NCBI GenBank assembly: GCA_903859375.1
Contig: CAIOMK010000059.1
Span: forward strand, 3,438 to 67,437
Direction of reading: 5' to 3'
Source: Candidatus Moraniibacteriota bacterium
Lineage (GTDB): Bacteria > Patescibacteriota > Minisyncoccia > Moranbacterales > UBA1568
Length of the DNA: 64,000 nt
The notes beneath the pieces were generated by a model. That model made no database searches. It worked only from the letters and a program-made list of their open reading frames with translations, and was not told the origin of the DNA. A program made the translations under genes and the position numbers. Below, one piece after another: positions 13,141-58,073 of this stretch. The number at the start of each line of letters is the position of its first letter. The first letter of the stretch is position 1.

Positions 13141-13144
13141 AGGG

Positions 13145-13438: not shown

Positions 13439-13453
13439 GACATAAAAGAATTT

Positions 13454-13831: not shown

Positions 13832-13849
13832 AGGATCGATTCGTTTTCG

Positions 13850-14465
13850 TTTTTCTCTTTCTGTTCCTTTCCGTCCCCGCTCCCGTCCCCGCTTTCGACT
13901 TGTAACTTTCAACTTGTAACTTTCGACTATTCTTCCCCGTCCCCGTCCCCGCTTTCGACTACTCTCCCCCCGTCCCCGTCCCCGCTTTCAACTTGTAACT
14001 TTCGACTATTCTTCCCCTTCCCCACTTTCGACTTGTAACTTTCGACTTATGACTACTCTCCGACTTGTGACTATTCTCCGCTTTTCGACTTTTCACTTTT
14101 CACTTTCGACTACTCTCCCCCCGTTCCCGTTCCCGTCCCCACTTTCGACTTGTAACTTGTGACTACTCTCCTCCCGTTCCCGTCCCCGCTTTCGACTATT
14201 CTTCCCCGTTCCCGCTTTCGACTTGTGACTTGTGACTTGTGACTTGTGACTGTTCTCCGACTTGTGACTACTCTCCTCCCGTTCCCGTTCCCGTCCCCAC
14301 TTTCGACTATTCTTCCCCGCCCCCGCTTTCGACTTTCGACTATTCTTCCCCGTTCCCACTTTCGACTTGTAACTTTCGACTTATGACTACTCTCCGACTT
14401 ATGACTACTCTCCGACTTATGACTACTCTCCCCCCGTTCCCGTTCCCGCTTTTCATTTCCTATCT
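13850..14465. repeat. Complex ~600-bp microsatellite-like array built from CCCGT(C/T)CCCG, CTTTCGACT, TGTAACTTTCGACT, TGTGACT and ATGACTACTCTCCGACTT (3x) motifs
   Basis: Direct reading of 13861-14460. Intergenic within the T4SS-like operon. Overlapping minus ORFs 14093..14359 and 14110..14778 are repeat artefacts. Confidence 0.8.
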
Positions 14466-14936
14466 CGTATCCATAAGCTTCGCGACCCTTCGTATGTCCT
14501 CGGCACTGACCGTTTTCAAATGAACCGGTTCGTTTCCCGATTTCGCTTTCATCGGCTGATATCCCGGCAAAGAAGATGGCCTTCTCCACATGAGCACTTT
14601 CGGATGCAACATGAAGAAGAAAGCGTGAACCACGTAACTGAGAAGAGGCTGTCCCGCAGGTCGATAAAATGCCAGCAGAACGAACAATACCACGATCGGC
14701 ACAGCGACGACGAAAGTCACCGTACCGGGAAAAATCGCCGCAACCGACAAGACAGTCGCGAACATGCCGATCATCCAAAACAGTTGCTTGACTGTCAGTG
14801 GACCGGCAACCTTGTCCTCGACATCTATGAACTGCGGTACATTGAACATCATAACATGGAATTGAATAGTGAACCTACCGTTGAAAACCGACGGAATACG
14901 CATGGATAGCCGTTCAATTCCCGCACAGGTCATCAA
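14460..14936 (-). CDS. PrgI/VirB3-like small membrane protein (2 TM) of Gram-positive-type T4SS. Start uncertain.
   Basis: Motif KVAGPLTVKQLFWMIGMF followed by two TM helices resembles the PrgI family. Positioned in the T4SS operon. Confidence 0.45.
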   Translation of the reverse strand: MMTCAGIERLSMRIPSVFNGRFTIQFHVMMFNVPQFIDVEDKVAGPLTVKQLFWMIGMFATVLSVAAIFPGTVTFVVAVPIVVLFVLLAFYRPAGQPLLSYVVHAFFFMLHPKVLMWRRPSSLPGYQPMKAKSGNEPVHLKTVSAEDIRRVAKLMDTR

Positions 14937-14955
14937 CCGGCACTCTCGGCCAAGA

Positions 14956-16719: not shown

Positions 16720-16771
16720 AGGAAAATATTACCAATCTATTTGACGACGACTCAGTCTAATCCCTGAATTT

Positions 16772-19129: not shown

Positions 19130-19263
19130 AATACGATATAAAAAAACTCCAAAACATCAAACGTTTCGGAGTTCATTCATACCATAACTCTCACGGTTAC
19201 ATTTCGTATTTTTCTCTTCCGTCTCAGTCTCATATTTTACACTTTTCTCTTTGCACTTTTCGC

Positions 19264-20502
19264 TTAATAGATATATCCCTTGATCGCACGACTGGCGATA
19301 GGAAGGACGCGGCGGTTAACCTTTCCCCAACCCTTGTAGTTCATCTCCGAGATGGTGATCGAGTCCCCGGAGACGCTTTCGACGATTGCGACATGCCCGT
19401 AGTATCGGTTCTCAGTCGTCACGATGATAGCTCCGCGAGACGGAACCCTTCCGGTCCGATATCCCATCGAACGTGCGTTAAATATCCATGTTCCAGCATT
19501 CCCACTCCACGGGACATAGCGTTTCTGAGCCACATACCACGTACAATATCCGTATGGGAACCGGTGTCCGTCCCCGGCCTTGCCATCAAGCGTCCTCCCA
19601 CCGCCCGACACGTCCGTCACCTCGCCGGCGGACGTGGCCGACGCATACTGCCTCCTCGCTATGCCTATCGTATCAACCGGTCTCGGTATCTCCTTGAGCC
19701 CGCCAGGGATCATGATGGAGTCACCGACAATCAGGTCACCGTTCGCAGGCAAGCTGTTGTATGACAATATTTTCTCACGGTCAGCCTTGTACTTCCCCGC
19801 AATGGAGTCGATAGTATCTCCGGACGTGACCGTATATGACAGTCCGGCAATCGGCAGGATGAAAATCTGGTCTCCGGGTTTTATGGAATCCACGTTGTCG
19901 AGGTTGTTCGCCCAGAGGATGGTATTCACGGTGATACCTTGATTCGCCGCAATCCCCGACACTGTATCACCTTCGGCCACGGTATAGATGCTCACGCCAC
20001 CTCCTTCTTCCGGATCTTTGGCAATGGAGTTGTCCGCATGAGCGGAAAGAAGCGCGCCTCCTTGGAATGCGATATTGTCCGCCTCGGCCGTATCTTTTGA
20101 GAGATCGACTGCGGTCGTCGCGGTCGAAAGATGGACAAGTGCAAGGCCTGCTTCCGCCTGACCCTTCAACGCGAACCGGTCACGGTATGTCGTCGGTACA
20201 GGCGTTCCGGTATCACGAAAATAACCGAATATAGCGCTCATTCCCTGCTCATGGGAGACATTCGTCAATGAAACGAGTAAAGCACTGGAGACAACCAGGG
20301 AAAACGCGCCGTACGTCCGGAATGATTCCAGCAATCGTCCGCCGAAACCACCCTTCAGTGTGTCGAGGACGAGACGTTGGGCGTGATGCGCCTCCATTTC
20401 AAAAACGGAGAAGCCTTCCCCGATTCGTTCCCACAGTCGGGAAAGTCCATTCTTGATACGTGACAAAACGGAGATAGGGATGGTCCCTTTCCTCAGGAAC
20501 AA
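19264..20502 (-). CDS. Membrane-anchored peptidoglycan hydrolase with two LysM domains and a C-terminal CHAP domain (TcpG/PrgK-like)
   Basis: LysM repeats YTVAEGDTVSGIAANQGITVNTILWANNL and YTVTSGDTIDSIAGKYKADREKILSYNSL. CHAP Cys motif GYCTWYV and His motif GHVAIVE. Confidence 0.85.
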   Translation of the reverse strand: MFLRKGTIPISVLSRIKNGLSRLWERIGEGFSVFEMEAHHAQRLVLDTLKGGFGGRLLESFRTYGAFSLVVSSALLVSLTNVSHEQGMSAIFGYFRDTGTPVPTTYRDRFALKGQAEAGLALVHLSTATTAVDLSKDTAEADNIAFQGGALLSAHADNSIAKDPEEGGGVSIYTVAEGDTVSGIAANQGITVNTILWANNLDNVDSIKPGDQIFILPIAGLSYTVTSGDTIDSIAGKYKADREKILSYNSLPANGDLIVGDSIMIPGGLKEIPRPVDTIGIARRQYASATSAGEVTDVSGGGRTLDGKAGDGHRFPYGYCTWYVAQKRYVPWSGNAGTWIFNARSMGYRTGRVPSRGAIIVTTENRYYGHVAIVESVSGDSITISEMNYKGWGKVNRRVLPIASRAIKGYIY

Positions 20503-21759: not shown

Positions 21760-22449
21760 TTACAACACGTCGACCATTCTCGGCTTACGCTCGGTAAACG
21801 AGTAGAGGCGTGCCGGACGGCTCTGTCCGGATTTCCTGACCTTTCCTGATTCCTTTACCAGGCCGATGTCCTGTATTTTCTTGCGGAAATTCCGCTTGTC
21901 GAGCTCGTGTCCGAGGATGATTTCATAGGCCGTCTGCAGTTCGGTCAGGGTGAATTCCTTCGGCAACAGTCCGTATGCGATATTGGAATACCCGAGCTTG
22001 CTCCGGAGGCGCTCGATGCCGGCTGAGACGATCTTCGTATGATCGAATGCCGTCTTAGGAAGACGCGCCGTATCGTACCAGGCGATATCGGAATAGTATT
22101 CGATCGTTGCCGGCAGACATCGGTCGCTGTTCACAAGCGCGAAATACGCCACCGAAATGCTCCGCCCGCGGATGTCGCGATCAACCCCTCCGAACGTATA
22201 CAATTGTTCGAGATAGATATCGTCGACACCCGCTTTCTCGGACAGCACCCGTTCAGCCGCTTGGTCAAGCGACTCGTCCATACGGACCAGTCCGCCCGGA
22301 AGCGCCCATTTTCCATCATACGGACCGCTTCCGATACGAATCAAAAGCACCTTAAGAGTACCGCCGATTACCGAAAAAATAACCATATCGACCGCAAGAA
22401 GCGGCGATGCGTTCAAAGACGGTGCGATGGTCGTTTTCCGGTCGGACAT
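21760..22449 (-). CDS. nrtR: NrtR-type Nudix-related transcriptional regulator. The ORF-track start at 22713 is rejected; start at 22449.
   Basis: Nudix box GKWALPGGLVRMDESLDQAAERVLSEKAG plus C-terminal winged-helix region. The longer ORF would overlap nadR by 218 nt. Confidence 0.7.
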   Translation of the reverse strand: MSDRKTTIAPSLNASPLLAVDMVIFSVIGGTLKVLLIRIGSGPYDGKWALPGGLVRMDESLDQAAERVLSEKAGVDDIYLEQLYTFGGVDRDIRGRSISVAYFALVNSDRCLPATIEYYSDIAWYDTARLPKTAFDHTKIVSAGIERLRSKLGYSNIAYGLLPKEFTLTELQTAYEIILGHELDKRNFRKKIQDIGLVKESGKVRKSGQSRPARLYSFTERKPRMVDVL

Positions 22450-22495
22450 AAGATGAGTGTTACTTCTACAGCATACCCCGGCGGTCCGAACCGCG

Positions 22496-23506
22496 TCAAT
22501 CATATCTTCTCGTCCTGTCGGGAAACGATTCGAAGAATCCGGCGCCATTATCCGAAAGCAACTCCGAACATTCTTGAATCGCCATTTGCAACCGGACATC
22601 ATGATCGCCAGACAGGACAATGAACGGTTTTTGTTCCTTCTCAAGAACTTCACGGAATCGCGCGTGCATGGCATGCCGTATCGATTCCCCGTCACGGATT
22701 CCGTCTTGGACAAACGGGATATCCACGTCGGTCAGAAGATACAAATCGTCGCTCTTTCCTGCATTCCGCTTCGCGACGGAAACGGACCTGGCGCCGAGAT
22801 ACCGTTCATGCCAAAGATCCGTCGCCCACGAATCGGTATCGCAGAACATCAGCTTATCGGCATATCCTATCAGAGCGTCTTCCATCCGGTTCTGTTCATC
22901 GGCGATGAATTCGAATTCGCCCGTAGCCCACGGTGTTCCGGAAGAAATCTTCCCTTCGGTATAGGTCCGACCGAATTCCGGAACCCATGTCGTCTTGAAA
23001 TACTCCGCCAAAGCCTTCGACATGGTCGTGGTTCCCGTCGATTCCGCCCCGACCACAACGACGCGCCTGACGAAATATGAACGGACGATCGGATGCAGAT
23101 ATTCCCAGTTCGCATACAGGTCTCCACGTATCATCGTGGCTGAAACAGGAATATGTTCCCGCTTCAAGTCAACCAAGACGTGTTCGGCTCCGAGAAGGCG
23201 CGCATATGTCTCGCCGTATGTTTCGGAAGTGAACACCTTGTCCGGACGGTATCCGAGAAACTGCACCGTATACTTCGCCCATGCCGCGGAATCGTCATCT
23301 TGCATAATATCGGCGACGACCAACACGGTGACGGATGGATGAATCGCTTTGATCCACCGGGCTCGGGTCTCCCCCGAGATACCTTGATCGGAGCGCTCAC
23401 AGACCGCGACTGTCACCGCGTCGGACTGTCGCAGCGCCTCCTCAATAAGGAACGAGTGCCCCTTATGGAGCGGATAAAACTTTCCTACGACGAATCCCCG
23501 TGTCAT
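22496..23506 (-). CDS. nadR: NadR-like bifunctional NMN adenylyltransferase / ribosylnicotinamide kinase, with no HTH domain
   Basis: NMNAT motif GKFYPLHKGH and RNK P-loop VVGAESTGTTT. Start is at the internal Met (MTRGFVVGKF), in an ATGA overlap with pnuC. Confidence 0.8.
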   Translation of the reverse strand: MTRGFVVGKFYPLHKGHSFLIEEALRQSDAVTVAVCERSDQGISGETRARWIKAIHPSVTVLVVADIMQDDDSAAWAKYTVQFLGYRPDKVFTSETYGETYARLLGAEHVLVDLKREHIPVSATMIRGDLYANWEYLHPIVRSYFVRRVVVVGAESTGTTTMSKALAEYFKTTWVPEFGRTYTEGKISSGTPWATGEFEFIADEQNRMEDALIGYADKLMFCDTDSWATDLWHERYLGARSVSVAKRNAGKSDDLYLLTDVDIPFVQDGIRDGESIRHAMHARFREVLEKEQKPFIVLSGDHDVRLQMAIQECSELLSDNGAGFFESFPDRTRRYD

Positions 23507-24210
23507 ATGGAAGACATCTCCTTTCTTGTAGGAATGACCGGTTCGGACACCGGCGCCCCCTTCTTCCGCGTTTCCCGTTTCCACTCGACCAGCCCCAAAG
23601 TGGCGAGTACGAGGAAGACGAGATACAGCATGGACACAAATCGGACTTCCTTCGCCGCATAGAGCCATATCCCGATGACATCCACTACGATCCACAAGTA
23701 CCAGTTATCAACGATCCGGAAGATCATGAGCATCTGTGCCGCGAAACTCATCACGGTCGTCACTGCATCGAGATATGGGAACGATGCCGGCTCCTGGAAA
23801 ATTGATGGCCACCATTCGTTCACGTGACCCATGAACCATCCGAGAGCAAGCGTACCGACAACGATGAATACCGTGGTGAACACCCGTTCCTTCAGTGTAC
23901 CGAAGCGGACGAGCGCCTCGCTGGATGAGACATCGCCGCCCTTCTCCACCTTGGCCCAGACCCACCATCCATAGAAACCAGACAGGAGATAGTAGATCTG
24001 TTCCACGAAATCGGAGTACAGACGGATCTGGAAGAAAAGTGCGCCGTACAGTATGACTGCGACAATCCCGATCGGCCAGTTCAGGATATGCTTTCTCGCC
24101 ACCAGCCAGACCGCGGCGATATTGAGAACCGTCCCAAAAAATTCCAGATAGCTCATCGGATATCCGAGAACCGAGAAGAGCACGTTGTCGATGCTGAAGA
24201 ATGAAATCAT
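23503..24210 (-). CDS. pnuC: PnuC nicotinamide riboside transporter
   Basis: 7-8 TM protein with the PnuC-type Trp-rich motifs SGFYGWWVW and VDNWYLWIVVD. Confidence 0.8.
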   Translation of the reverse strand: MISFFSIDNVLFSVLGYPMSYLEFFGTVLNIAAVWLVARKHILNWPIGIVAVILYGALFFQIRLYSDFVEQIYYLLSGFYGWWVWAKVEKGGDVSSSEALVRFGTLKERVFTTVFIVVGTLALGWFMGHVNEWWPSIFQEPASFPYLDAVTTVMSFAAQMLMIFRIVDNWYLWIVVDVIGIWLYAAKEVRFVSMLYLVFLVLATLGLVEWKRETRKKGAPVSEPVIPTRKEMSSI

Positions 24211-24307
24211 ACGGGCGTTCGATTAGACTGATGAATACTGTTCGGAACGGACTCTTCACTCTGTGCATATGCCGACTCGACCCTCGGCATACTTCTCCGT
24301 CCCTTTG

Positions 24308-24328
24308 TTAGTGTATTATACACACTAA
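24308..24328. promoter_or_regulatory. Candidate NrtR operator 1 (perfect 7-N7-7 palindrome TTAGTGTATTATACACACTAA) overlapping the -10 of the minus-strand pnuC promoter (TTGACA 24342..24337, N16, TATAAT 24320..24315)
   Basis: Inverted repeat read directly from the sequence. Near-identical to site 2. Located between divergent NAD-salvage operons next to nrtR. Confidence 0.5.
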
Positions 24329-24539
24329 ATAATTCCTGTCAATGATCCGTCGGGAAAAAACGCGCCTGACGATAGTCTTTCCACGTAACGGCGACGAGTG
24401 ATCCCGCGAGCGGCTCCCGATCGGGACCAACGCGACAGCATGTCAAAAAACGGCCCACAGAGCGATATTTCCGCATGTACGGAATCGATACGCCTCCGTA
24501 CCGGTCACCGTAGCCAGACTTTTCTTGACAACGATTATA

Positions 24540-24558
24540 TAGTGTGTATAATACACTT
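24540..24558. promoter_or_regulatory. Candidate NrtR operator 2 (TAGTGTGTATAATACACTT) overlapping the -10 of the plus-strand nadM promoter (TTGACA 24525-24530, N15, TATAAT 24546-24551)
   Basis: Shares the 17-mer core AGTGTGTATAATACACT with operator 1 read on the opposite strand. Confidence 0.5.
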
Positions 24559-24766
24559 AGTAAGGACAGGAAAGGAATACGGAAAGACAGATCGGAAAAA
24601 CGGCTCACGACAACCGACGGGACCCATATCAGTTCCCGGCATCGCTGCCACAAGCCTCATCGAAGATCTTCCCCCGATGCCACAGGCATCGGCACTCCGT
24701 TCCCTACTTAGTGTACTTACTACAATATTAGTATCTTCACAACCGAAAAATCATAAGGAGAACAGC

Positions 24767-25678
24767 ATGGGACAGAAACGACTCGCCGTCATCATCGGCC
24801 GATTTCAGGTCGCAAGGCTGCATGGGGGACATCGCCACCTCATCGAAACGGCACGTGCGGAAGCCGACATGGTGCTCATCCTTCTCGGAAGCACCTCCGG
24901 ATTCCCATCGTCGCGCAATCCGCTTCCGTATCTCGTACGGAAAGCGATGATCGAAACGGAATTTCCGGACATCATCGTCGCAGAGCTTCCAGATCGCCAC
25001 ACAAACAGACTGTGGTCGGACAGTATCGATCATATCGTCACGACGACCTTTCCCGGATATGAGGCCCGCCTTTACGGGTCCCGGGACAGTTTTATCCCCT
25101 GTTATGACGGACTCCTGCCATGCGTCCTCATCCGGCCGGCGATAGCGCCGTCCGGGACGGAGCTCCGAGCGGGAATTTCCTCTTCGGACTACGGGAAAAG
25201 CGATTTCCGGGCAGGCATCATCCATGCACAGACCCTCCGTGAACCGATTTCCTATCAGGCAGTCGACATCGCGGTCATCCGGTACCCGGGAAACGAGGTC
25301 TTGCTCGGAAAAAAGAACTGCGACGGAGGAAAACTCCGCTTCATCGGAGGATTCACTGATCCTTCGGATGCATCACTCGAGACGGCCGCCCTCCGGGAAT
25401 TGAACGAGGAGGCTGGTTGCATCGATTGCCATGCGGTCGATTACCTCGGTTCGTTCCGTGTACCGGATCATCGGTATCTCGGAGCGGAAGACCAGGTCAT
25501 GACGGCATTCTTCGCCGCTTATCACCTCTCCGGGCTTCCGAAAGCCGGCGACGACATCGACGAGGTCGCCTGGATCCTGATCGGGGACATCTCATCGTGC
25601 ATCGTGCAGAATCATCTGCCTCTCGCAAAGAGACTCATCACCTTCATCAACGAAACAAAAACAGGAGTCCCCGCATGA
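24767..25678 (+). CDS. nadM: NadM-like NMN adenylyltransferase fused to a Nudix (ADP-ribose pyrophosphatase) domain. Start at ATG 24767 after AAGGAG; the ORF-track start at 24398 is rejected.
   Basis: GRFQVARLHGGH nucleotidyltransferase motif and Nudix box GGFTDPSDASLETAALRELNEEAG. Confidence 0.7.
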   Translation: MGQKRLAVIIGRFQVARLHGGHRHLIETARAEADMVLILLGSTSGFPSSRNPLPYLVRKAMIETEFPDIIVAELPDRHTNRLWSDSIDHIVTTTFPGYEARLYGSRDSFIPCYDGLLPCVLIRPAIAPSGTELRAGISSSDYGKSDFRAGIIHAQTLREPISYQAVDIAVIRYPGNEVLLGKKNCDGGKLRFIGGFTDPSDASLETAALRELNEEAGCIDCHAVDYLGSFRVPDHRYLGAEDQVMTAFFAAYHLSGLPKAGDDIDEVAWILIGDISSCIVQNHLPLAKRLITFINETKTGVPA

Positions 25679-27063
25679 ACACCGACGAAAACATCATCCT
25701 CCTGACCGACAGCTACAAACCGTCACATTGGAGACAATACCCCGACAAGACGACCGGTATCTACGGTTTTCTCGAAAGCCGTGGCGGAGTTTTTCCGGAA
25801 ATACTGTTCTTCGGTCTCCAGTATTTCCTCAAGAAATATCTCTCCGGCTCGGTCGTCAGCAAGGAGAATATCATCGAGGCGCGCGAGCTCCTCGGTGAGC
25901 ATTTCGGAAACAGCTCGATTTTCAACGAAGCGGGCTGGACCAGGATCCTCGAACATCACGGCGGCCGTCTGCCTGTTCGGATCAAGGCGGTACCCGAAGG
26001 GACCGTCGTGCCGAACTCGAACGTCCTTCTGACTATGGAGAGCACCGATCCCGGACTGGCATGGCTCCCGAACTACCTTGATCCGCTCCTGACAGAGCTC
26101 TGGTACCCCTGTACTGCGGCGACCCAAAGCCGTGCGATGAAAGATATCATCCTCGAATACCTCGAGGAAACCGGAGATACTGGACTGATTGATTTCAAAC
26201 TGCACGACTTCGGATTCCGCGGATCGACCAGTCCCGAATCAGCCGGCATCGGAGGAGCCGCACACCTGGTGAACTTCAAGGGAAGCGACAACCTCACCGC
26301 GATCCGAATGCTCCGCCGGCTCTATTCCGAACCGATGGCGGGATTTTCCATCCCGGCGGCGGAACACAGCACGATAACGTCTTGGGGAAAGCAACACGAG
26401 GTGGACGCGTTTCGCAACATGCTCGAGCAATTCCCCGAAGGTCTGGCCGCTGTCGTTTCCGACAGCTACGACATATTCCATGCCTGTCGGACACTTTGGG
26501 GCAAGGAACTCAGGGAAAAAGTCCTCGGCAGGAACGGCACGCTCGTCGTCCGTCCGGACAGCGGCGACCCTGCTACGGTCGTCGTCGAAGTATTGAACAT
26601 CCTCGGTGAGGCCTTCGGTACGGAAATGAACGCGAAAGGTTACAAGGTGCTCGACCCGCATGTCCGAGTCATCCAAGGAGACGGCATCGACCTCCACTCG
26701 CTTCCACTAATCTTGTCTCATATGAAGAGACACGGGTGGTCGGCTGACAACGTCGCCTTCGGTTCCGGAGGCGGACTGCTCCAGAAAATGAACCGCGACA
26801 CGAACCGTTTCGCATTCAAATGCTCGGCAGCCGAAATCGACGGGGCTTGGAAAGATGACATCATGAAAGACCCGGTCACCGACCCCGGCAAACGTTCCAA
26901 AGCCGGCAGGATGAAACTCATCCAAGAAAACGGCACACTCCGGACGGTATGCGAAAGCGCACCCGGAGAAGACCGACTCGTAACGGTATTCGAGAACGGC
27001 CGGTTACTCCAAGACTGGTCGCTCGCGGAAATACGCGATCGGGCAAACGACAAGAACGAATAA
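25675..27063 (+). CDS. nadV: Nicotinamide phosphoribosyltransferase (NAMPT/NadV). Start in ATGA overlap with nadM; the ORF-track start at 25417 is rejected.
   Basis: [24 protein letters not shown]-terminus and full-length NAPRTase-family similarity (GTSPESAG, DSYD). Confidence 0.85.
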   Translation: MNTDENIILLTDSYKPSHWRQYPDKTTGIYGFLESRGGVFPEILFFGLQYFLKKYLSGSVVSKENIIEARELLGEHFGNSSIFNEAGWTRILEHHGGRLPVRIKAVPEGTVVPNSNVLLTMESTDPGLAWLPNYLDPLLTELWYPCTAATQSRAMKDIILEYLEETGDTGLIDFKLHDFGFRGSTSPESAGIGGAAHLVNFKGSDNLTAIRMLRRLYSEPMAGFSIPAAEHSTITSWGKQHEVDAFRNMLEQFPEGLAAVVSDSYDIFHACRTLWGKELREKVLGRNGTLVVRPDSGDPATVVVEVLNILGEAFGTEMNAKGYKVLDPHVRVIQGDGIDLHSLPLILSHMKRHGWSADNVAFGSGGGLLQKMNRDTNRFAFKCSAAEIDGAWKDDIMKDPVTDPGKRSKAGRMKLIQENGTLRTVCESAPGEDRLVTVFENGRLLQDWSLAEIRDRANDKNE

Positions 27064-52384: not shown

Positions 52385-53539
52385 ATGTCCCTCTCTCCGG
52401 TCGAGCAGTTCTCCGAACTCGTACGGAAAAGCGTCCACCCGCTCATCCTTCTTCCAGCCCACCCGTCAAAAGATACGGTCGCATCGGCACTCGCGCTCGA
52501 AAGGTTCATCGCCTTATCGGGAAAACCGGTAACCGTCGCCGGAGACGATTTCTCCTCGCACACGCACGAACTCGGATTTTTGGAAATGCCGACAAATCCG
52601 CTCGATTCTCTTTCCGGTACGCGCGAATTCGTCCTTTCTTTCAACACGGAACGCAACCCCATACTCGGCACCAGGAGTGAACAGGTCGGGAATGAATTTC
52701 TTATACATATCACCCCGGAAAAAGGAACGATCGACCCCCGTGACTTTTCATTCATTCCGGCACGGCTTCAGTATGATGTCGCCTTCGTGCTTGGTGCCGC
52801 TGACAAAGAGTCTCTCGGATCCCTGTATGCCGAAAACTCGGACATCTTCTACGAAATCCCCATCGTGAATATCGACACGTCTGCCGGGAACGAGCGGTTC
52901 GGACAGGTAAACTTGGTCGATATGACCGCGTCTTCCATCGCCGAGATTCTTTTTGAGGCGATTCTTTCCATCGATGCGACCAAGGTGGACGAAGCCGTCG
53001 CGGAAGACCTGCTCACGGGAATAATCGCGGCGACCGAGAGCTTCCAACGCAAAAATACGACTCCGAAAGCGTTACAGGCGGCCTCCCGTCTTATCGAGCT
53101 CGGCGCAGATCGGGGAAAAATCGTACTCGCCCTCTATAAAACCCAGCCATTCGGAGTCCTCAAACTATGGGGCCGATTCATGTCCGCGCTTCGCTGGAGC
53201 GAAGAGCTCCGCCTTGCCTATGCGACCCTCTCACTTGATGATTTCATACAGAGTCGGACCCGTCCGGAAGATCTTCCCGAGATTCTCGACAAAGTCCGTG
53301 CCAATTTCTCATCAGGCACGTTGTTCGCGGCGGTTTACCCCGAAACGCCGACTGTGTCCGCGGTCGTTATCCGCGCCACGGATGCCGGTATCGCCGCGTC
53401 ACTCTCGACGAAAATTCCGGGGTCGAATCTGCGCGGAGACATGCTGTCATTTGCCATCCCTCTGCCTGCCGGAGAGGATGCGGAGTCGGGCCTGATTTCC
53501 ATTATTTCTTCCGCTCTCGCCGAGAACCAGCCAATTTGA
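52385..53539 (+). CDS. DHH/DHHA1-family phosphoesterase (NrnA-like nanoRNase/pAp phosphatase). Start at internal ATG 52385.
   Basis: DHH-type N-terminal domain (LLLPAHPSKDTVASALAL, AGDDF) and C-terminal DHHA1-like region. Confidence 0.65.
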   Translation: MSLSPVEQFSELVRKSVHPLILLPAHPSKDTVASALALERFIALSGKPVTVAGDDFSSHTHELGFLEMPTNPLDSLSGTREFVLSFNTERNPILGTRSEQVGNEFLIHITPEKGTIDPRDFSFIPARLQYDVAFVLGAADKESLGSLYAENSDIFYEIPIVNIDTSAGNERFGQVNLVDMTASSIAEILFEAILSIDATKVDEAVAEDLLTGIIAATESFQRKNTTPKALQAASRLIELGADRGKIVLALYKTQPFGVLKLWGRFMSALRWSEELRLAYATLSLDDFIQSRTRPEDLPEILDKVRANFSSGTLFAAVYPETPTVSAVVIRATDAGIAASLSTKIPGSNLRGDMLSFAIPLPAGEDAESGLISIISSALAENQPI

Positions 53540-53631: not shown

Positions 53632-54312
53632 ATGTCACGACTCCCCAAACACCCTCACGTTCCGATATCAAAGATAGCGGATCGATTGTTCGCTCATTTA
53701 AAAAATATTGCGGATAAACGGTATCACCTCACGCATCCCAGGAAATCAAACCTCTCTTCGTCAAGGCAGAACAAGAATTCCTTCATGTACTTCGACGAGA
53801 TTCTTTTTTTTCAGATCTCCAAGGAAAGCGTGTGGATCGCAATACTCGGACAAGGTCGAAAACTGATCAACTCGGAGCCTCCCACGACGGAACCGCTCGA
53901 CCAATTTCGAATCGCGTTCATGCCGCTCCCCCTTTCTTCGCACAAACTTTGCAATCTGTTCGTGCGGGAAACAAAATCAAGGAAAAAACAAAGTAACACC
54001 GGAGACATCACCATCGAACCTTTTTCTGAAATTTCACGTCTCACACTCGCGAGCGGGACCGAGAAAAAACTTTCCGAGGCACTTGGAGTCACAGACACGG
54101 GAAAAGACATGCTCATACTCAATCTCGAAGAAAAATTTCCGATGTGTTTTTTCTCCGGAAGTCACAGTATGGACGACAAGGCTCACATGTTGAACGGTAT
54201 TTTTAAAGGAGACCCCACCTCCTTGAACGACGCCACCGTTCTCGATATGGCACACCACCTCACTGCAGAGGTTCTCAAAGTCATTCACAGTATCCCCCAG
54301 GAACAACAATGA
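53632..54312 (+). CDS. Hypothetical 226-aa protein
   Basis: Complete ORF. Weak RBS. No motif. Confidence 0.4.
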   Translation: MSRLPKHPHVPISKIADRLFAHLKNIADKRYHLTHPRKSNLSSSRQNKNSFMYFDEILFFQISKESVWIAILGQGRKLINSEPPTTEPLDQFRIAFMPLPLSSHKLCNLFVRETKSRKKQSNTGDITIEPFSEISRLTLASGTEKKLSEALGVTDTGKDMLILNLEEKFPMCFFSGSHSMDDKAHMLNGIFKGDPTSLNDATVLDMAHHLTAEVLKVIHSIPQEQQ

Positions 54313-54448
54313 CATTCTATCGACGAACTGACCCGGCAACGTGACAAACGCGCTACCGGGTTTTTATTATGGGAATCCGTACCGAAACGTTCCATTTTTC
54401 GCCCTTTTCGGTTACAATGATGGAAGAAACTCCTCTTAAGAGGATGTA

Positions 54449-57400
54449 TTGTATCCTCCAAAAAAATCTTTTCCTAAACAGAATCCTATGGTTCAGGTCG
54501 TTTCAAAATCGTCGCAGGACTGGAGAGACGTAAAAACGAAAAAAGCGGCGACCGTTCTTCACGCACTCGAAGGCGCGTCCAAAGAGCAGGAGGCCGCCCA
54601 GAAAGCCGCGTTGCTCGGTGTTCCGTATCTTGACCTCAATATCTTTCCAGCAAACCCGATCGATGTGACTATTATTCCGAAGGAAGACGCGACAAGGCTC
54701 CATATAGCCATATTCGACAAGACAAAAGGCGTCGTCCGGGTAGCGTTCGACGATCCGACAGATTCCGAGGCCACTCAGTTTATCGAAAAACTGGCCAAAG
54801 AAAACGATTGGGTAGTCGAACCGTACGTCGTCTCGATGCAGTCACTTGAGAAGGTCTGGACGATCTATGACACCGCCCCGTTTCTACAGAGTCTCGATCT
54901 GTTCCGCGTTTCCCTCTCCGGAGAAGACCTGCGCCGGTTCGAAGAAAATTTCAGTGAACTTCTCAAACTGAAAAGCTCGTCTTCCATTTCCATTTCCCAA
55001 ACCATCGAAATCATTCTTGCCGGAGCGAACAAACTCCGGGCAAGCGACATCCATATCGAGCCGGAAACCGGTTCCGTGCGTCTCCGTTATCGTATAGACG
55101 GCGTCTTGCAGGATATAGGAGAACTCTCGAAGGACATCTATCGGTTGACGCTTTCGCGGGTGAAAATGCTTGCCGGCATGAAGATAAACATCCGGGACCG
55201 GTCTCAGGACGGCCATTTCGGCATCGAGCTCGACGGAAAAAAAGTCGACCTCCGAGTGAACATCATACCAGGCAGTCACGGTGAAAGCATCAACCTTCGC
55301 ATACTCAACGCCGAAAGTATCCTCTTGGATCTGAAAACGATTGGGCTGGACGGTGAAACCTTGGAAAAGGTTCTCCGCGCCATAGGAAAACCACATGGGA
55401 TGATCCTGAACACCGGGCCGACCGGTTCCGGCAAAACGACGACCCTCTATAGTCTTCTTCACACGCTCAACAAGCCAGAAATCAAGATCATCACTATCGA
55501 GGATCCGGTCGAATATCAGCTCCAGGGTGTTGTTCAGACCGAAGTATCCAAAAATCAGACATATACGTTCGCAGCCGCACTTCGGGCCATCGTCCGGCAA
55601 GATCCGGATGTGATTCTCGTCGGCGAAATCCGAGACGACGAGACCGCAGATATCTCAGTGAATGCCGCGCTCACCGGACACCTCCTCCTCTCGACGATTC
55701 ATGCGAACAGCGCGCCGGGTGCCGTAGGACGACTCATCGAGCTCGGAGTGAAGCCGTCACTCATAGCCTCCGCAACGGATATCATCATCGGACAAAGACT
55801 GGTTCGGATCCTCTGCCCGGATTGCAAGGAATCGTATGAGCCGGCGAAAGAAACCATCAGCTCCATAGAGCGCATCCTTTCAGTCATTTCTCCGAAGGCC
55901 CATATCGAGGTGCCTCACAACGTGAAGGAGCTCTGGAAGCCGGTCGGTTGCGTCAAATGCAATCTTACGGGCTATCATGGCCGAATCGGTATTTTCGAGG
56001 CATTCACGATCACGCCTCCGATAGAGGAGCTCATCGTGAACATGGGCACAGAAAGAGAGATCATGAGAGCCGCCATCGAAGACGGCATGGTGACCATGTT
56101 GCAAGACGGCATGATCAAGGCGCTCCGTGGCACGACGACACTCGAGGAGATATGGCGTGCGACCGGACAAAAGGAGAGCATGCAGGAACTCTACGAGGAG
56201 CTCATGCCGAGTCTTCTTTCGCGGGCATCGGACATCCCCGCCTCAGCATTCATATCGGCGCGGGAGAATATCTCGTCTTTCGAAATATTCGCAAAATACA
56301 CGGCGACACTCAATGATCATGACCTGATTCGCGTAATCTTTGCCGCCGCACTCTTTCTTCGGGCTGGTGATGTCCACTTCGAACCGACAGATGAATCCAT
56401 TCTCGTCCGATTCCGTATCGACGGCATCCTTCAGACCATCCTGTCTTTCCCAAAGAACATCTATCCGTCGATTCTCGGTGAGATCAAGCTTTGGAGCGGC
56501 CTGAAGACCGGGCAACGTTCCGGCGTAACGGATGGCCGGTTCACACTCTCCGTCGAAGAACCGTTCGAGCAGGTAAAGCCGGGGAAAATAGATGTCCGTC
56601 TTTCGATAATCCTGGGCGGATTCGGGGAAACGGCCGTCATGAGAATTTTAGGCGGTTCATCAATCACGTTGTCACTCGACGCGCTCGAGTTTCGAAAAGA
56701 GAATTTGTCCCGCATCGATGCTGCGCTCCGGAAGCCGAACGGGATGATCGTGAACGTCGGTCCGACCGGTTCCGGTAAGACGACAACACTCTATAGCATG
56801 CTTTCCAAACTCAATACCCCCGAAGTGAAGATCATCACAGTCGAGGACCCGATCGAATACCAGCTTCCGGGAGTATTGCAGACACAGGTGAACGAAGCGG
56901 AAGGGTATTCTTTCGCCGAAGCGCTCCGAGCACTTCTCCGTCAGAACCCGGATATCCTTATGCTCGGAGAAATCCGCGACGAGGAGACGGCCCGCATAGC
57001 CGTCCAGGCAGCCGTCACAGGACACCTCGTCCTCTCGACGGTTCACGCGAACAGCGCTGCCGGAGCTGTATCCCGTATTATCGGCATGGGCGTTCCGACC
57101 GACGACCTCGCGAATGCGATAAACTGTTTCATTTCCCAACGTCTCGTCCGAAGACTCTGTCCGAATTGTCGCAAGGAAGAACAGCCCACCCAGGAAGAAA
57201 CAACCCTGATCGAACGCATCCTTGGAAAAGTCGACAACGCGCTCCTCACGGAAGTTCCCCCGACAGACAAGGTATTCCGCACGGTCGGATGTCCGAAATG
57301 TAACGGAGTCGGTTATTCCGGACAGATCGTCTTATCGGAGGTCTTATTGAAAGATCCTGATATCGAAGGACTTATCGCGGGGAACGCACTTTCGTCAGAA

Positions 57401-57514
57401 ATAAACGCGACAGCCGTAAAGAACGGCATGATTCCCCTTTCGGTCGACGGAATACTCGCCGTACTTGAAGGAAGGACGACCATCGATGAGGTTCGCCGCG
57501 TCACAGACGAATAA
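54449..57514 (+). CDS. Tandem-duplicated GspE/PilB-type secretion ATPase: two complete ATPase modules fused in one 1021-aa polypeptide
   Basis: Walker A GPTGSGKTTTLYS at about residue 330 and again at about 770. Asp box and His box present twice. Zn tetracysteine motifs CPDC...CVKC and CPNC...CPKC present twice. GspE_N-like N-terminus. Confidence 0.85.
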   Translation: MYPPKKSFPKQNPMVQVVSKSSQDWRDVKTKKAATVLHALEGASKEQEAAQKAALLGVPYLDLNIFPANPIDVTIIPKEDATRLHIAIFDKTKGVVRVAFDDPTDSEATQFIEKLAKENDWVVEPYVVSMQSLEKVWTIYDTAPFLQSLDLFRVSLSGEDLRRFEENFSELLKLKSSSSISISQTIEIILAGANKLRASDIHIEPETGSVRLRYRIDGVLQDIGELSKDIYRLTLSRVKMLAGMKINIRDRSQDGHFGIELDGKKVDLRVNIIPGSHGESINLRILNAESILLDLKTIGLDGETLEKVLRAIGKPHGMILNTGPTGSGKTTTLYSLLHTLNKPEIKIITIEDPVEYQLQGVVQTEVSKNQTYTFAAALRAIVRQDPDVILVGEIRDDETADISVNAALTGHLLLSTIHANSAPGAVGRLIELGVKPSLIASATDIIIGQRLVRILCPDCKESYEPAKETISSIERILSVISPKAHIEVPHNVKELWKPVGCVKCNLTGYHGRIGIFEAFTITPPIEELIVNMGTEREIMRAAIEDGMVTMLQDGMIKALRGTTTLEEIWRATGQKESMQELYEELMPSLLSRASDIPASAFISARENISSFEIFAKYTATLNDHDLIRVIFAAALFLRAGDVHFEPTDESILVRFRIDGILQTILSFPKNIYPSILGEIKLWSGLKTGQRSGVTDGRFTLSVEEPFEQVKPGKIDVRLSIILGGFGETAVMRILGGSSITLSLDALEFRKENLSRIDAALRKPNGMIVNVGPTGSGKTTTLYSMLSKLNTPEVKIITVEDPIEYQLPGVLQTQVNEAEGYSFAEALRALLRQNPDILMLGEIRDEETARIAVQAAVTGHLVLSTVHANSAAGAVSRIIGMGVPTDDLANAINCFISQRLVRRLCPNCRKEEQPTQEETTLIERILGKVDNALLTEVPPTDKVFRTVGCPKCNGVGYSGQIVLSEVLLKDPDIEGLIAGNALSSEINATAVKNGMIPLSVDGILAVLEGRTTIDEVRRVTDE

Positions 57515-57566
57515 AAAGGCCTCATCTTTGACGATGAAGCCTTATCCAAATCTTGAACATGAAGCA

Positions 57567-58073
57567 TTATCCCATATGGGATGTGGCGTGCTTATGCGTC
57601 TCGGAAAATCTTTTTGTTGTCTCGATAGCCTCTCTCATATCTCCAACATCCGCTACAACCACGACCGTTCCGGTCGCCATCATCTGCTCAATGGGTGACA
57701 AGACCCGGTGGACCACTCCCGGCGGTAGCCAGAACCCGCATCGGTCGGCGCCGGTCTCTGCACAATCCCATCTCATACAACCGACAAGCTTGATCGGATT
57801 TTCGGAGTATCTCACGGCGTACTCCGGAATCTGAAAATTCTTCTCTGCCGAGGAATACAAAGTCACCGGGTCACCGATGAAGATAGGTTTTCCGCACCAC
57901 GCACAACGGATAGCCATTTTTTCGAGACACCCGTGACAGAACGGCGTCTTATTCCCCTTGATCGGTATTTTCGTCTTCGATCTTCCGCCGAACGCCACAA
58001 CCGTTCCGTCTCTCCATGTCTTGTGACCGCAATCGGCGATGATGGGGTACAGTATTCCGCTAAAAATCGACAT
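57567..58073 (-). CDS. Hypothetical Cys-rich 168-aa protein
   Basis: CxxC pairs (CHGC, CAWCGKP, CMRWDC) suggest metal binding. Confidence 0.45.
   Translation of the reverse strand: MSIFSGILYPIIADCGHKTWRDGTVVAFGGRSKTKIPIKGNKTPFCHGCLEKMAIRCAWCGKPIFIGDPVTLYSSAEKNFQIPEYAVRYSENPIKLVGCMRWDCAETGADRCGFWLPPGVVHRVLSPIEQMMATGTVVVVADVGDMREAIETTKRFSETHKHATSHMG

What the first reader, a model, noticed from the sequence alone, without database searches (positions are those of the whole stretch)
54449..57514. Tandem fusion of two complete PilB/GspE secretion ATPases in one 1021-aa protein
Both halves retain Walker A (GPTGSGKTTTLYS), Asp and His boxes, and the tetracysteine zinc motif. Canonical PilB/GspE proteins are single-module hexameric ATPases of about 550 aa.

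A covalently duplicated motor could form a pseudo-hexamer from three chains, with the two modules specialised (one catalytic, one regulatory). No other pilus or T2SS genes are adjacent in this window, so its partner machinery is unknown. It may relate to the nearby T4SS-like system or to type IV pili encoded elsewhere.
Basis: seen in the sequence. Interest (0 to 1): 0.6.

Follow-up and report, generated by a model that had tools for sequence, protein, structure and literature searches.

The report
Tandem double PilB pilus motor ATPase
This is a real, conserved gene in Moranbacteria and related ultra-small (Parcubacteria/CPR) bacteria that joins two complete, intact copies of the ATPase that builds type IV pili into one protein, a natural "covalent dimer" of a motor normally made of six separate chains.

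Summary
One uninterrupted ORF (54449-57514, +) carries two full PilB/GspE-type modules. The conserved start is the ATG at 54488, giving 1008 aa.

It is not an assembly artefact:
- The modules are only 45-46% identical in protein.
- The longest DNA repeat between them is 152 nt at 76%.
- The identical protein is indexed in 145 blocks of public assemblies.

About 146 double-module homologues (39-100% identity) occur in Moranbacteria, Parcubacteria and Paceibacterota, always at the same housekeeping site (PolA, TsaE | DHH-like | PilBx2 | RuvB). A single-module orthologue and a three-module variant sit at that same site, so the resident pilB was duplicated in place.

Both modules keep every catalytic residue defined in Geobacter PilB. 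Both are under strong purifying selection (dN/dS 0.045 and 0.074), so "one catalytic, one regulatory" is not supported for this protein. A sister sub-lineage and an unrelated fusion do have a degenerate module.

A single ring of three chains is the most likely assembly. It is inferred, not shown, and the structure predictions were inconclusive. No pilus genes lie nearby, and a link to the distant T4SS-like cluster is unsupported.

I found no paper describing this architecture. I rate it a new variant of a known kind, of moderate interest.

The parts
54488..57514 (+). Gene for the tandem PilB-PilB protein (1008 codons plus stop), from the conserved ATG
   Evidence: P0001 (1008 aa) is 100% identical and is indexed in 145 assembly blocks.
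54449..54487 (+). Extra 13 codons of the maximal ORF (TTG start), probably not translated
   Evidence: Homologues start at the Met14 equivalent. This stretch is not conserved in L016 or L003.
54413..54418 (+). TACAAT, a conserved -10-like promoter element about 70 nt upstream of the ATG
   Evidence: GGTACAATG is invariant in the window, L016 (84% protein identity) and L003 (54%). Function is inferred.
54614..54835 (+). N1 / MshEN-like domain (aa 56-129), present once per chain
   Evidence: Pfam PF05157, E = 7.7e-8. The c-di-GMP-binding MshEN motif is absent.
54974..55318 (+). Module A N2 domain (aa ~176-290) with Arg fingers R269 and R284, and H256 at the PilB_Gm R257 position
   Evidence: Alignment to G. 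metallireducens PilB, mapped onto the residues named in PMC5424180. Family conservation.
55319..56173 (+). Module A C-terminal ATPase domain (aa 291-575): Walker A 55415-55438, Asp box 55499-55513, Walker B/catalytic Glu 55610-55636, His box 55673-55702, CxxC 55814-55825 and 55949-55960
   Evidence: The model matches PilB_Gm chains at TM 0.91-0.93.
56174..56314 (+). Inter-module linker (aa 576-622), homologous to the N1-N2 linker of ordinary PilB, with the conserved motif Y..LMPS.LSR
   Evidence: B-half residues 2-50 align to M. xanthus PilB 134-180. Y569 is invariant. AlphaFold shows only a short low-confidence hinge at aa 574-578 of the 1008-aa form. dN/dS is 0.16.
56315..56683 (+). Module B N2 domain (aa ~623-745) with Arg fingers R717 and R732, and R697 at the PilB_Gm R257 position
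56684..57511 (+). Module B C-terminal ATPase domain (aa 746-1021): Walker A 56759-56782, Asp box 56843-56857, Walker B/catalytic Glu 56954-56980, His box 57017-57046, CxxC 57158-57169 and 57290-57301
57516..57543 (.). G+C-rich hairpin directly after the stop codon, between the convergent genes (terminator-like)
   Evidence: This is a consensus scan only, and the count of such sites is not above the shuffled expectation.
52385..53539 (+). Conserved upstream neighbour: a ~384-aa DHH-family (distantly NrnA-like) protein
   Evidence: It sits on the same strand as, and upstream of, the PilB gene in L001, L002, L003, L011, L012, L014 and L016. It is directly adjacent except in L001 and L016, where, as in the window, one small ORF intervenes. 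Orthologues hit PF01368 DHH. The window copy gives only a weak NrnA hit (E = 0.0018). A functional link is not shown.

Best explanation
The gene encodes a natural tandem duplication of the lineage's resident PilB-type (type IV filament extension) ATPase. Its layout is N1 domain, [N2 + ATPase domain] module A, a ~45-residue linker derived from the N1-N2 linker, then [N2 + ATPase domain] module B.

Shown:
- The fusion is real and old, and it is vertically inherited at one syntenic site in Moranbacteria/Parcubacteria.
- Both modules keep the complete catalytic and inter-subunit residue set of PilB.
- Both modules are under strong purifying selection.

Inferred:
- Three chains assemble into one six-module ring in the order A-B-A-B-A-B, carrying three rather than six N1 domains.
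- All six sites bind and hydrolyse ATP, as in ordinary PilB.
- The ring turns and lifts a PilC-type platform, encoded elsewhere in the genome, to polymerise pilins. In CPR bacteria such pili are thought to serve attachment and/or DNA uptake.
- Covalent pairing fixes the neighbour of every module, so A and B can diverge. B evolves faster here and has begun to degenerate in a sister sub-lineage.
For: Real and not an artefact:
- The ORF is continuous.
- The modules are 45-46% identical in protein, and the longest inter-module DNA repeat is 152 nt at 76%.
- The identical protein is indexed in 145 assembly blocks.

Conserved family:
- 120 of 120 best hits are multi-module: 119 doubles (979-1044 aa, all but three of them 1003-1022 aa) plus one 1460-aa triple.
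- There are about 13 clusters at 50% identity, reaching down to 39% identity.
- Source names are Moranbacteria, Parcubacteria and Paceibacterota, with entries deposited since 2015.

Old duplication:
- In a bootstrapped NJ tree the A modules and B modules of the core family form separate clades, at 98% and 97% support.

In-place origin:
- The flanks TsaE | DHH | PilBx2 ... RuvB recur in seven other loci.
- The single-module P0138 sits at DHH | PilB | RuvB.
- The triple P0009 sits at TsaE | DHH | PilBx3.

Both modules competent:
- Equivalents of PilB_Gm T327, E357, R271, R286, E395, D398/E400, T411, H413, H420 and R455 (PMC5424180) are present in both modules.
- Of 93 columns conserved in single-module PilBs, A keeps 87 and B keeps 80.
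- dN/dS against the 84%-identical orthologue is 0.045 for A and 0.074 for B.

PilB type:
- The best solved relatives are PilB, PilF and GspE.
- The fold matches at TM 0.91-0.93.
- The tetracysteine motif specific to the PilB/GspE clade is present in both modules.

Single ring:
- Chains with 1, 2 and 3 modules occur at one locus.
- Pore-loop-1 acidic residues are kept in both modules.
- The chimeric middle module of the triple has a B-type N2 domain and an A-type C-terminus. If each N2 packs on the preceding module's ATPase domain, this preserves B-on-A and A-on-B pairings.
Against: - No assembly-state evidence was obtained. AlphaFold gave pTM 0.48 for the full chain and 0.57 for the ATPase domain A + N2 domain B construct, so no confident inter-module packing was predicted.
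- No pilC, pilM, pilT, pilD or pilin gene lies within the 64-kb window or within ~10 kb in seven related loci. The partner machine is therefore assumed.
- A PilC search returned no Moranbacteria-labelled hit, which is inconclusive.
- Taken alone, each module scores below the NCBIfam PilB and GspE equivalog cut-offs.
- dS is about 1.3, near saturation, so the dN/dS values are approximate.
- Module A has His instead of the PilB_Gm R257-equivalent Arg in the Moranbacteria subgroup, a minor asymmetry of unknown effect.
Confidence: 0.6

Rival explanations
1. Stacked double ring. Six chains form two coaxial hexameric rings (A6 on B6), as in KaiC, p97/NSF or ClpB. Only one ring would touch the membrane platform, and the other would act as a second engine or regulator.
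For: Tandem P-loop ATPases commonly stack in this way (established knowledge). AlphaFold did not predict a confident side-by-side packing of the ATPase domain of A with the N2 domain of B.
Against: - PilB-type rings are built from N2-on-neighbour-ATPase-domain packing units joined like beads on a string (PMC5424180). A tandem chain simply extends that string.
- Pore-loop acidic residues are conserved in both modules, which is unexpected for a ring that never meets PilC.
- A three-module variant fits 2 x 3 = 6 better than it fits a triple stack.
- The low-confidence hinge between the modules is only about 5-10 residues long.
Confidence: 0.15
2. Division of labour. One module, most likely B, is a catalytically weak or inactive regulatory or structural module, so the ring has only three working sites.
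For: - Module B evolves faster: column entropy is 1.28 against 0.99, and identity to the closest orthologue is 84% against 91%.
- The sub-lineage P0041/P0059/P0072/P0094/P0106 has a module B in which the second His-box His is Gln, the second Arg finger is Lys, and Walker B GE is SE.
- The unrelated fusion P0136 has a first module with Walker A Lys changed to Thr.
Against: In this window's protein and its core family, module B keeps every catalytic residue. Its dN/dS of 0.074 indicates strong constraint over the whole domain.
Confidence: 0.15
3. The motor serves something other than a type IV pilus. One option is the T4SS-like system in the same window. Another is a DNA-processing or uptake role, suggested by its neighbours (PolA, HolA, RuvA/B/C, DHH phosphoesterase).
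For: - The gene is never next to pilus genes in the eight loci examined.
- It is embedded among DNA replication and recombination genes.
- A VirB4-like ATPase lies at 10762-13140.
- In L014 a T4SS_pilin-domain gene follows RuvB.
Against: - VirB11 and TrbB models score 114 and 106 bits for the whole protein, against cut-offs of 250 and 305.
- The N1 + N2 + ATPase domain + Zn-tetracysteine layout is that of the PilB/GspE clade.
- Close single-module relatives sit beside pilins, PilC and PilM.
- T4P genes are known to be scattered in many genomes (PMC6668835).
- A competence pilus is itself a type IV filament, so a 'DNA uptake' role would not contradict the main explanation.
Confidence: 0.1
4. 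Assembly or annotation artefact: two adjacent pilB genes merged by a missed stop, a frameshift or a collapsed repeat.
For: None found.
Against: - The frame is continuous.
- The modules are diverged at the DNA level.
- The identical protein is indexed in 145 assembly blocks.
- 146 homologues have the same architecture, down to 39% identity.
- The junction carries a conserved motif.
Confidence: 0.01

Closest known systems
PilB, the type IVa pilus extension ATPase (e.g. Geobacter metallireducens PilB, PDB 5TSH/5TSG/6OLJ; Myxococcus xanthus PilB, 3JC8)
   Same: - Domain types are the same: N1/MshEN-like, N2, and an ATPase domain with a Zn tetracysteine.
- All catalytic and inter-chain residues are shared.
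- The fold matches at TM 0.91-0.93, with 42-43% identity per module.
   Different: - There are two motor modules on one chain, and N1 is present only once.
- The gene is not in a pilus operon.
- Each module scores below the TIGR02538 cut-off: 445 and 375 bits against 675.65.
GspE, the type II secretion ATPase (Vibrio EpsE/GspE, PDB 1P9R, 4KSR, 4PHT)
   Same: It shares the same clade-level features, including the 'construction unit' packing concept and the tetracysteine. Similarity scores are comparable: TIGR02533 gives 463 and 409 bits per module.
   Different: CPR bacteria lack an outer membrane and a secretin (PMC6744442), so a true T2SS is unlikely. The tandem architecture and the sub-cut-off scores also differ.
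Thermus thermophilus PilF (PDB 6F8L, 5OIU)
   Same: It is another PilB-family motor whose chain was enlarged by internal duplication.
   Different: PilF multiplies the N-terminal GSPII/MshEN domains and keeps a single ATPase module. Here the ATPase module itself is duplicated and N1 is single.
Covalently duplicated ring ATPases and platform proteins: KaiC, p97/NSF, and the internally duplicated PilC/GspF platform
   Same: These are tandem duplications of an oligomerising unit within one chain. PilC/GspF itself carries two T2SSF repeats (PMC6668835).
   Different: KaiC and p97 stack their two rings, whereas a side-by-side arrangement in one ring is the favoured (unproven) model here. The resemblance comes from established knowledge and was not tested.
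Single-module orthologue at the same locus (P0138, 565 aa, L014) and three-module variant (P0009, 1460 aa, L002)
   Same: Both share the synteny (DHH | PilB | RuvB, or TsaE | DHH | PilB). They are 47-48% identical to the window protein, with all motifs intact.
   Different: They carry one or three modules instead of two. The middle module of the triple is a chimera of a B-type N2 domain and an A-type C-terminus.

Membership tests
PilB/GspE clade of PilT-like secretion ATPases (Pfam T2SSE PF00437) | Walker A GxxxxGK[ST] | tested here: met
   GPTGSGKT is present at aa 323-330 and 771-778. A stricter pattern, G..G.GK[ST], is intact in 145/146 A modules and 134/146 B modules. Most of the 12 B exceptions still fit GxxxxGK[ST].
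PilB/GspE clade of PilT-like secretion ATPases (Pfam T2SSE PF00437) | Asp box with the Mg-coordinating Glu (PilB_Gm E357) | tested here: met
   EDPVE ending in E355 (module A) and EDPIE ending in E803 (module B). The motif is present in 144/146 A modules and 146/146 B modules.
PilB/GspE clade of PilT-like secretion ATPases (Pfam T2SSE PF00437) | Atypical Walker B followed by the catalytic Glu (GEIRD), and pore-loop-1 acidic residues | tested here: met
   E393/D396/E398 in module A and E841/D844/E846 in module B.
PilB/GspE clade of PilT-like secretion ATPases (Pfam T2SSE PF00437) | His box (PilB_Gm T411, H413, H420) | tested here: met
   T409/H411/H418 in module A and T857/H859/H866 in module B.
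PilB/GspE clade of PilT-like secretion ATPases (Pfam T2SSE PF00437) | Two N2-domain arginine fingers (PilB_Gm R271, R286) | tested here: met
   R269/R284 in module A and R717/R732 in module B, both conserved in the family.
PilB/GspE clade of PilT-like secretion ATPases (Pfam T2SSE PF00437) | Tetracysteine Zn motif and the clade-specific inter-chain Arg (PilB_Gm R455) | tested here: met
   CPDC/CVKC with R453 in module A, and CPNC/CPKC with R901 in module B. These features are specific to the PilB/GspE clade according to PMC5424180.
PilB/GspE clade of PilT-like secretion ATPases (Pfam T2SSE PF00437) | One N1 domain per motor module | tested here: not met
   There is a single MshEN/N1 match, at aa 56-129. 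Module B is preceded only by a linker.
PilB/GspE clade of PilT-like secretion ATPases (Pfam T2SSE PF00437) | Hexamer of six identical single-module chains | not testable with these tools
   The architecture makes this impossible as stated. The assembly state (3 x 2 ring or stacked rings) could not be determined: AlphaFold pTM was 0.48 and 0.57.
Type IVa pilus assembly ATPase PilB (NCBIfam TIGR02538 equivalog) | Score at or above the curated cut-off (675.65 bits) | tested here: not met
   Module A (with N1) scores 445.5 bits and module B 375.0. The whole protein reaches 815.5 only because two modules add up. A bona fide operon PilB from WWE3 also falls short, at 585.7 bits.
Type IVa pilus assembly ATPase PilB (NCBIfam TIGR02538 equivalog) | Encoded with, or shown to work with, PilC/PilM/pilins | tested here: not met
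   No T2SSF, PilM or N_methyl gene and no prepilin motif was found in the 64-kb window, nor within ~10 kb in L001-L003, L011, L012, L016 and L019. The rest of the genome could not be searched.
Type II secretion ATPase GspE (NCBIfam TIGR02533 equivalog) | Score at or above the cut-off (630.25 bits) and a T2SS context | tested here: not met
   The modules score 463.5 and 408.7 bits. There is no T2SS gene nearby, and CPR bacteria lack the secretin (PMC6744442).
PilT/PilU retraction ATPases (TIGR01420) | Score at or above 319.1 bits; AIRNLIRE motif; no N1 and no tetracysteine | tested here: not met
   The modules score 186 and 153 bits. There is no AIRNLIRE-like motif, and the tetracysteine is present.
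VirB11/TrbB type IV secretion ATPases | Score at or above the family cut-offs (TIGR02788 249.95; TIGR02782 304.55) | tested here: not met
   The whole protein scores 114 and 106 bits.
c-di-GMP-binding MshEN domain | The 24-residue motif RLGxx(L/V/I)(L/V/I)xxG(L/V/I)(L/V/I)xxxxLxxxLxxQ (from my own recollection of the literature) | tested here: not met
   0 of 132 long (>=950 aa) homologues checked match even a relaxed form of the motif in the first 160 residues.

The most novel reading that the evidence does not exclude
Parcubacteria carry a natural series of covalently linked PilB motors with 1, 2 and 3 modules per chain. These would assemble as 6x1, 3x2 and 2x3 single rings, so that every position in the ring is genetically fixed. 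Relatives in which one module has degenerated would then show that a type IV filament motor can run on three active sites, or with only two or three N1 domains. This would make the long-debated symmetry (C2 or C3) and site-cooperativity of PilB/GspE motors directly testable with natural proteins.
Probability: 0.45. Interest if true: 0.7.

Novelty: new variant of a known kind. Interest (0 to 1): 0.55.

Why it matters
How PilB/GspE hexamers couple ATP turnover at six sites to rotation of the platform protein is still argued from symmetric or C2/C3 structures of identical chains.

A naturally fused dimer fixes which module neighbours which. The same applies to its three-module and single-module orthologues at the same locus, and to its relatives with one degenerate module.
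- It halves the number of N1 adaptor domains per ring.
- It allows site-specific mutation of alternate ring positions without engineering linkers, the strategy that was decisive for ClpX and other ring motors.

It also bears on CPR biology. Type IV pili are considered central to the episymbiotic lifestyle and to DNA or nucleotide scavenging, and this appears to be the PilB orthologue that Moranbacteria keep at a conserved housekeeping locus.

On the practical side, automated annotation passes the 'GspE' and 'PilB' equivalog thresholds here only because two modules add their scores.

Tried and rejected
- **Assembly collapse or missed stop:** rejected.
- **Genome-contig scan with the single protein:** the back-translated patterns were too specific. 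It returned only six loci, all single-module PilBs of other Patescibacteria or unrelated hits.
- **Looking for a Moranbacteria pilus platform with a Magasanikbacteria PilC query:** none of the top 120 hits was labelled Moranbacteria, so this is inconclusive and not evidence of absence.
- **Prepilin-motif scan of all six frames of the window:** no hits.
- **AlphaFold of the full chain (pTM 0.48) and of the ATPase domain A + linker + N2 domain B construct (pTM 0.57):** the domains are confident but their relative placement is not.
- **c-di-GMP regulation through MshEN:** the motif is absent.
- **Catalytic asymmetry from the Arg-to-His change at the PilB_Gm R257 position in module A:** the change is confined to the Moranbacteria subgroup and also occurs in some single-module PilBs, so it is not a family-wide specialisation.
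- **Eight literature searches for a described tandem or fused PilB/GspE (papers read):** none found. The library does not cover most subscription journals.
- **Independent duplications (P0125, P0129, P0136):** for P0125 and P0129, which lie at or near the same syntenic site, intragenic gene conversion is an equally good explanation. I could not separate the two.


Full report
**1. The observation**

- The ORF 54449..57514 (+) is continuous and 1021 aa long from a TTG.
- Pfam finds two full-length T2SSE matches plus one N-terminal MshEN/N1 match at aa 56-129.
- Regex and BLASTP on the translated sequence show that each half carries:
  - Walker A, GPTGSGKT (aa 323 and 771)
  - the Asp box, EDPxE (351 / 799)
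  - Walker B with the catalytic Glu, GEIRD (392 / 840)
  - the His box (409-418 / 857-866)
  - two CxxC pairs
- The two halves align over 417 residues at 45% identity (E = 2e-123).
- The second half lacks an N1 domain. It begins with a ~45-residue segment that aligns to the N1-N2 linker of M. xanthus PilB.
- The true start is the ATG at 54488, giving 1008 aa. Nearly all homologues are 1003-1018 aa and begin at that Met. Nucleotide conservation with two orthologous loci resumes exactly there, after a conserved TACAAT at 54413-54418.

**2. Not an artefact**

- At the DNA level, the longest repeat between the modules is 152 nt at 76% identity, 1344 nt apart. A collapsed recent duplication is therefore excluded.
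- The identical 1008-aa protein is indexed in 145 blocks of public assemblies, on contigs up to 112 kb long.

**3. A conserved family**

- All 120 best hits in the 5.8-billion-protein collection are multi-module. 119 are doubles of 979-1044 aa (all but three of them 1003-1022 aa), at 43-100% identity. One is a 1460-aa triple.
- Where a source name is given, it is Moranbacteria/Moraniibacteriota, Patescibacteria or Minisyncoccota.
- In the library clustered at 50% identity there are about 13 double-module clusters, reaching down to 39% identity.
- Members of these clusters are labelled Parcubacteria (KKU82539.1, deposited in 2015 as 'General secretory pathway protein E') and Paceibacterota.
- In total, 146 double-module sequences were collected.

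**4. Origin**

Every double examined lies in the same housekeeping block: PolA and TsaE on the minus strand, then a ~380-aa DHH-family gene and the fusion on the plus strand, then (often after a SET-domain gene) RuvB, YebC and RuvC.
- This holds for L001, L003, L011, L012 and L016.
- L019 has PolA-TsaE directly upstream.
- L013 has RuvB downstream.

A single-module 565-aa PilB (P0138) occupies the same slot, DHH | PilB | RuvB. The three-module P0009 occupies TsaE | DHH | PilBx3. The resident pilB was therefore duplicated in place.

By contrast, single-module PilBs of other Patescibacteria sit in ordinary pilus operons:
- pilB-pilT-pilC in a WWE3 contig
- pilB-pilC-pilM in Magasanikbacteria
- pilB next to a pilin gene

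The module tree (neighbour-joining, 400 columns, 168 modules, 100 bootstraps) gives the following.
- The A modules and the B modules of the core Moranbacteria-level family form separate clades, at 98% and 97% support. The duplication therefore predates their radiation.
- The deeper A/B split across all lineages is only moderately supported (51-68%).
- In P0125, P0129 and P0136 the two modules are each other's closest relatives (96%, 100% and 86% support; module identities 56%, 73% and 44%).
- P0136 comes from a clearly different genomic background and is an independent fusion.
- For P0125 and P0129, which lie at or next to the same site, either independent duplication or intragenic gene conversion would explain the pattern.
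- The middle module of the triple is a chimera. Its N2 domain is B-like (65% against 36%) and its C-terminal third is A-like (63% against 43%). This is the product expected from unequal crossing-over between two A-B copies.

**5. Are both modules functional?**

I mapped the residues that McCallum et al. (PMC5424180) identify in G. metallireducens PilB through the alignments. The PDB chain numbering equals native numbering plus 20.

| PilB_Gm residue | Role | Module A | Module B |
|---|---|---|---|
| T327 | Walker A region | T325 | T773 |
| E357 | Asp box, binds Mg | E355 | E803 |
| R271, R286 | arginine fingers | R269, R284 | R717, R732 |
| E395 | catalytic Glu | E393 | E841 |
| D398, E400 | pore loop 1 | D396, E398 | D844, E846 |
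| T411, H413, H420 | His box | T409, H411, H418 | T857, H859, H866 |
| R455 | inter-chain Arg | R453 | R901 |

- All of these residues are present in both modules and conserved across the family.
- The only difference among the named residues is at R257. It is His256 in module A of the Moranbacteria subgroup and Arg697 in module B. Other doubles have Arg in A, and a few single-module PilBs also have His.
- Of 93 alignment columns conserved at 85% or more in 119 single-module PilBs, module A keeps 87 and module B keeps 80.
- Against the 84%-identical orthologue (L016), Nei-Gojobori dN/dS is 0.045 for module A, 0.074 for module B, 0.14 for N1 and 0.16 for the linker. dS is about 1.3 and near saturation, so these ratios are approximate.
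- Both modules are thus strongly constrained over their whole length, with B somewhat freer (column entropy 1.28 against 0.99).
- The model of each module superposes on PilB_Gm chains at TM 0.91-0.93 and rmsd 2.2-2.8 Å.

**6. Relatives with an asymmetric pair**

- Five clusters (P0041, P0059, P0072, P0094, P0106) keep a normal module A, 71% identical to this one. P0106 is from an 826-kb Moranbacteria contig.
- Their module B is only 40% identical to this protein's module B. In it, the second His-box His is Gln, the second Arg finger is Lys, Walker A reads GPDGSGKT, Walker B GE is SE, and QRLVR is VRLVR.
- P0136 is an independent fusion in a non-CPR-like neighbourhood (ECF sigma factor, MoxR, BatA). 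It has an N-terminal T2SSF-like domain and a first module with Walker A Lys changed to Thr and the Asp-box Glu changed to Gln, followed by an intact second module.
- The 'catalytic plus regulatory' idea therefore applies to some tandems, but not to the one in this window.

**7. How it probably works**

Established knowledge: - PilB rings are six 'packing units', each made of the N2 domain of one chain on the ATPase domain of its neighbour, connected like beads on a string.
- Nucleotide is held between the N2 domain and the ATPase domain of the same chain.
- The ring cycles through closed and open interfaces and drives PilC.

Inference:
- A tandem chain is simply two beads already joined, so three chains would close a ring A-B-A-B-A-B.

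Supporting but indirect evidence:
- Chains with 1, 2 and 3 modules occur at one orthologous locus, and all are divisors of six.
- The pore-loop acidic residues that face PilC are kept in both modules.
- The low-confidence hinge between modules is only about 5-10 residues long.
- The chimeric middle module of the triple would preserve B-on-A and A-on-B packing pairs, provided each N2 domain sits on the preceding ATPase domain.
- PDB entries show that this ATPase family can adopt both C2 ('ccocco', PilB) and C3 ('ocococ', PilT4) rings (titles). A 3x2 chain is compatible with C3 alternation and the 2x3 triple with C2.

Not shown:
- AlphaFold gave confident domains (mean pLDDT 81 and 77) but a low pTM, 0.48 for the full chain and 0.57 for the ATPase domain A + N2 domain B construct. 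The assembly therefore remains inference, and a stacked double ring is the main rival.
- A consequence of the single-ring model is three N1 domains per ring instead of six.

**8. Which machine does it serve?**

- No PilC, PilM, PilT, prepilin peptidase or pilin is encoded in the 64-kb window or within ~10 kb in the related loci.
- The T4SS-like cluster lies about 41 kb away. It comprises a VirB4-like gene at 10762-13140, large unannotated ORFs and a LysM-CHAP hydrolase.
- The protein scores far below the VirB11 and TrbB cut-offs.
- Type IV pilus components are widespread in CPR bacteria, and the secretin is absent (PMC6744442). A pilus, possibly a competence-type pilus, is therefore the most likely client.
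- This is inferred. I could not search the rest of the genome, and a PilC search gave no Moranbacteria-labelled hit.

**9. Membership**

- The protein has all the defining sequence and fold features of the PilB/GspE clade, in duplicate.
- It departs from the family in three ways: N1 is present only once, there are two modules per chain, and it has no operon context.
- Per module it falls below the NCBIfam PilB and GspE equivalog cut-offs, at 445/463 and 375/409 bits against 675.65/630.25. The whole protein passes only by summation.
- A bona fide operon PilB from WWE3 also falls below the cut-offs (586 and 581 bits). The shortfall therefore reflects CPR divergence rather than a different function.
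- It is not PilT-like: 186 and 153 bits against 319, no AIRNLIRE motif, and the tetracysteine is present.
- It lacks the c-di-GMP-binding MshEN motif.

**10. Novelty**

- The sequences have been public since 2015 under generic names.
- Eight full-text searches and four papers read found no description of a tandem or triple PilB/GspE motor. The papers included the TFF-superfamily survey, the archaeal T4P census, the CPR protein-family study and the PilB mechanism paper.
- The library is incomplete for subscription journals, so prior mention cannot be excluded.
- I rate it a new variant of a known kind. It is of moderate interest for CPR biology and of real interest to people working on the mechanism of type IV filament motors.

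Noticed in passing
L002:10001-14383 (P0009, 1460 aa): A three-module PilB (A, a chimeric B/A module, then B) sits at the same TsaE | DHH | PilB locus in a JGI metagenome contig. All three modules have Walker A, Asp box, Walker B and His box. The first and third modules have CxC in place of the first CxxC.
   Followed up: partly
L003:10001-13018 (P0106), plus P0041, P0059, P0072 and P0094: A sister sub-lineage of Moranbacteria doubles has a strongly diverged module B, 40% identical to this protein's module B against 71% for module A. The second His-box His, the second Arg finger and the Walker B Gly are all substituted, which points to a possibly inactive or regulatory module.
   Followed up: partly
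L018:8001-11144 (P0136, 1047 aa, GCA_964384625.1): An independent tandem in a non-CPR-like neighbourhood (ECF sigma/anti-sigma, MoxR, BatA, sulfatase). It has an N-terminal T2SSF (PilC-like) domain, then a T2SSE module lacking the Walker A Lys and the Asp-box Glu, then an intact T2SSE module.
   Followed up: partly
window 52385-53539 (+), and the equivalent genes in L001-L003, L011, L012, L014 and L016: A ~380-aa DHH-family phosphoesterase (weakly NrnA-like) sits upstream of the PilB gene on the same strand, across lineages only 43-48% identical in PilB, whether the PilB has one, two or three modules. It is directly adjacent except in the window, L001 and L016, where one small ORF intervenes. 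This may be a functional link or just conserved housekeeping synteny.
   Followed up: partly
window 53632-54312 (+) and 57567-58073 (-): Two ORFs with no Pfam or NCBIfam match flank the fusion: one of 226 aa, and one Cys-rich ORF of 168 aa. The 226-aa ORF has a counterpart only in close relatives (L001, and a 204-aa ORF in L016). The Cys-rich ORF was seen only in L001. Neither is present at the same positions in more distant orthologous loci.
   Followed up: no
window 54449-57514 (annotation issue): The whole protein passes the NCBIfam 'equivalog' cut-offs for both GspE (864 against 630) and PilB (815 against 676) only because two modules add their scores. Each module alone is well below both cut-offs, so automatic names for such tandems are unreliable.
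   Followed up: yes
window 6752-20502 (-): A T4SS-like block: a VirB4/TraG-type P-loop ATPase (10762-13140), three large ORFs without Pfam matches (6752-9550, 14956-16719, 16772-19129) and a LysM-CHAP cell-wall hydrolase (19264-20502). It is not linked to the PilB fusion by any evidence found.
   Followed up: no
window 21760-27063: A cluster that looks like NAD salvage and regulation: an NrtR-like Nudix + winged-helix protein (21760-22713), an AAA_28 / cytidylyltransferase-like NadR-type protein (22496-23695), a Nudix protein (24398-25678) and a NAMPT/NAPRTase (25417-27063).
   Followed up: no
L014:4605-5819: In the genome with the single-module orthologue, a 404-aa protein with a T4SS_pilin (PF18895) domain lies directly after RuvB, two genes downstream of PilB.
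   Followed up: no
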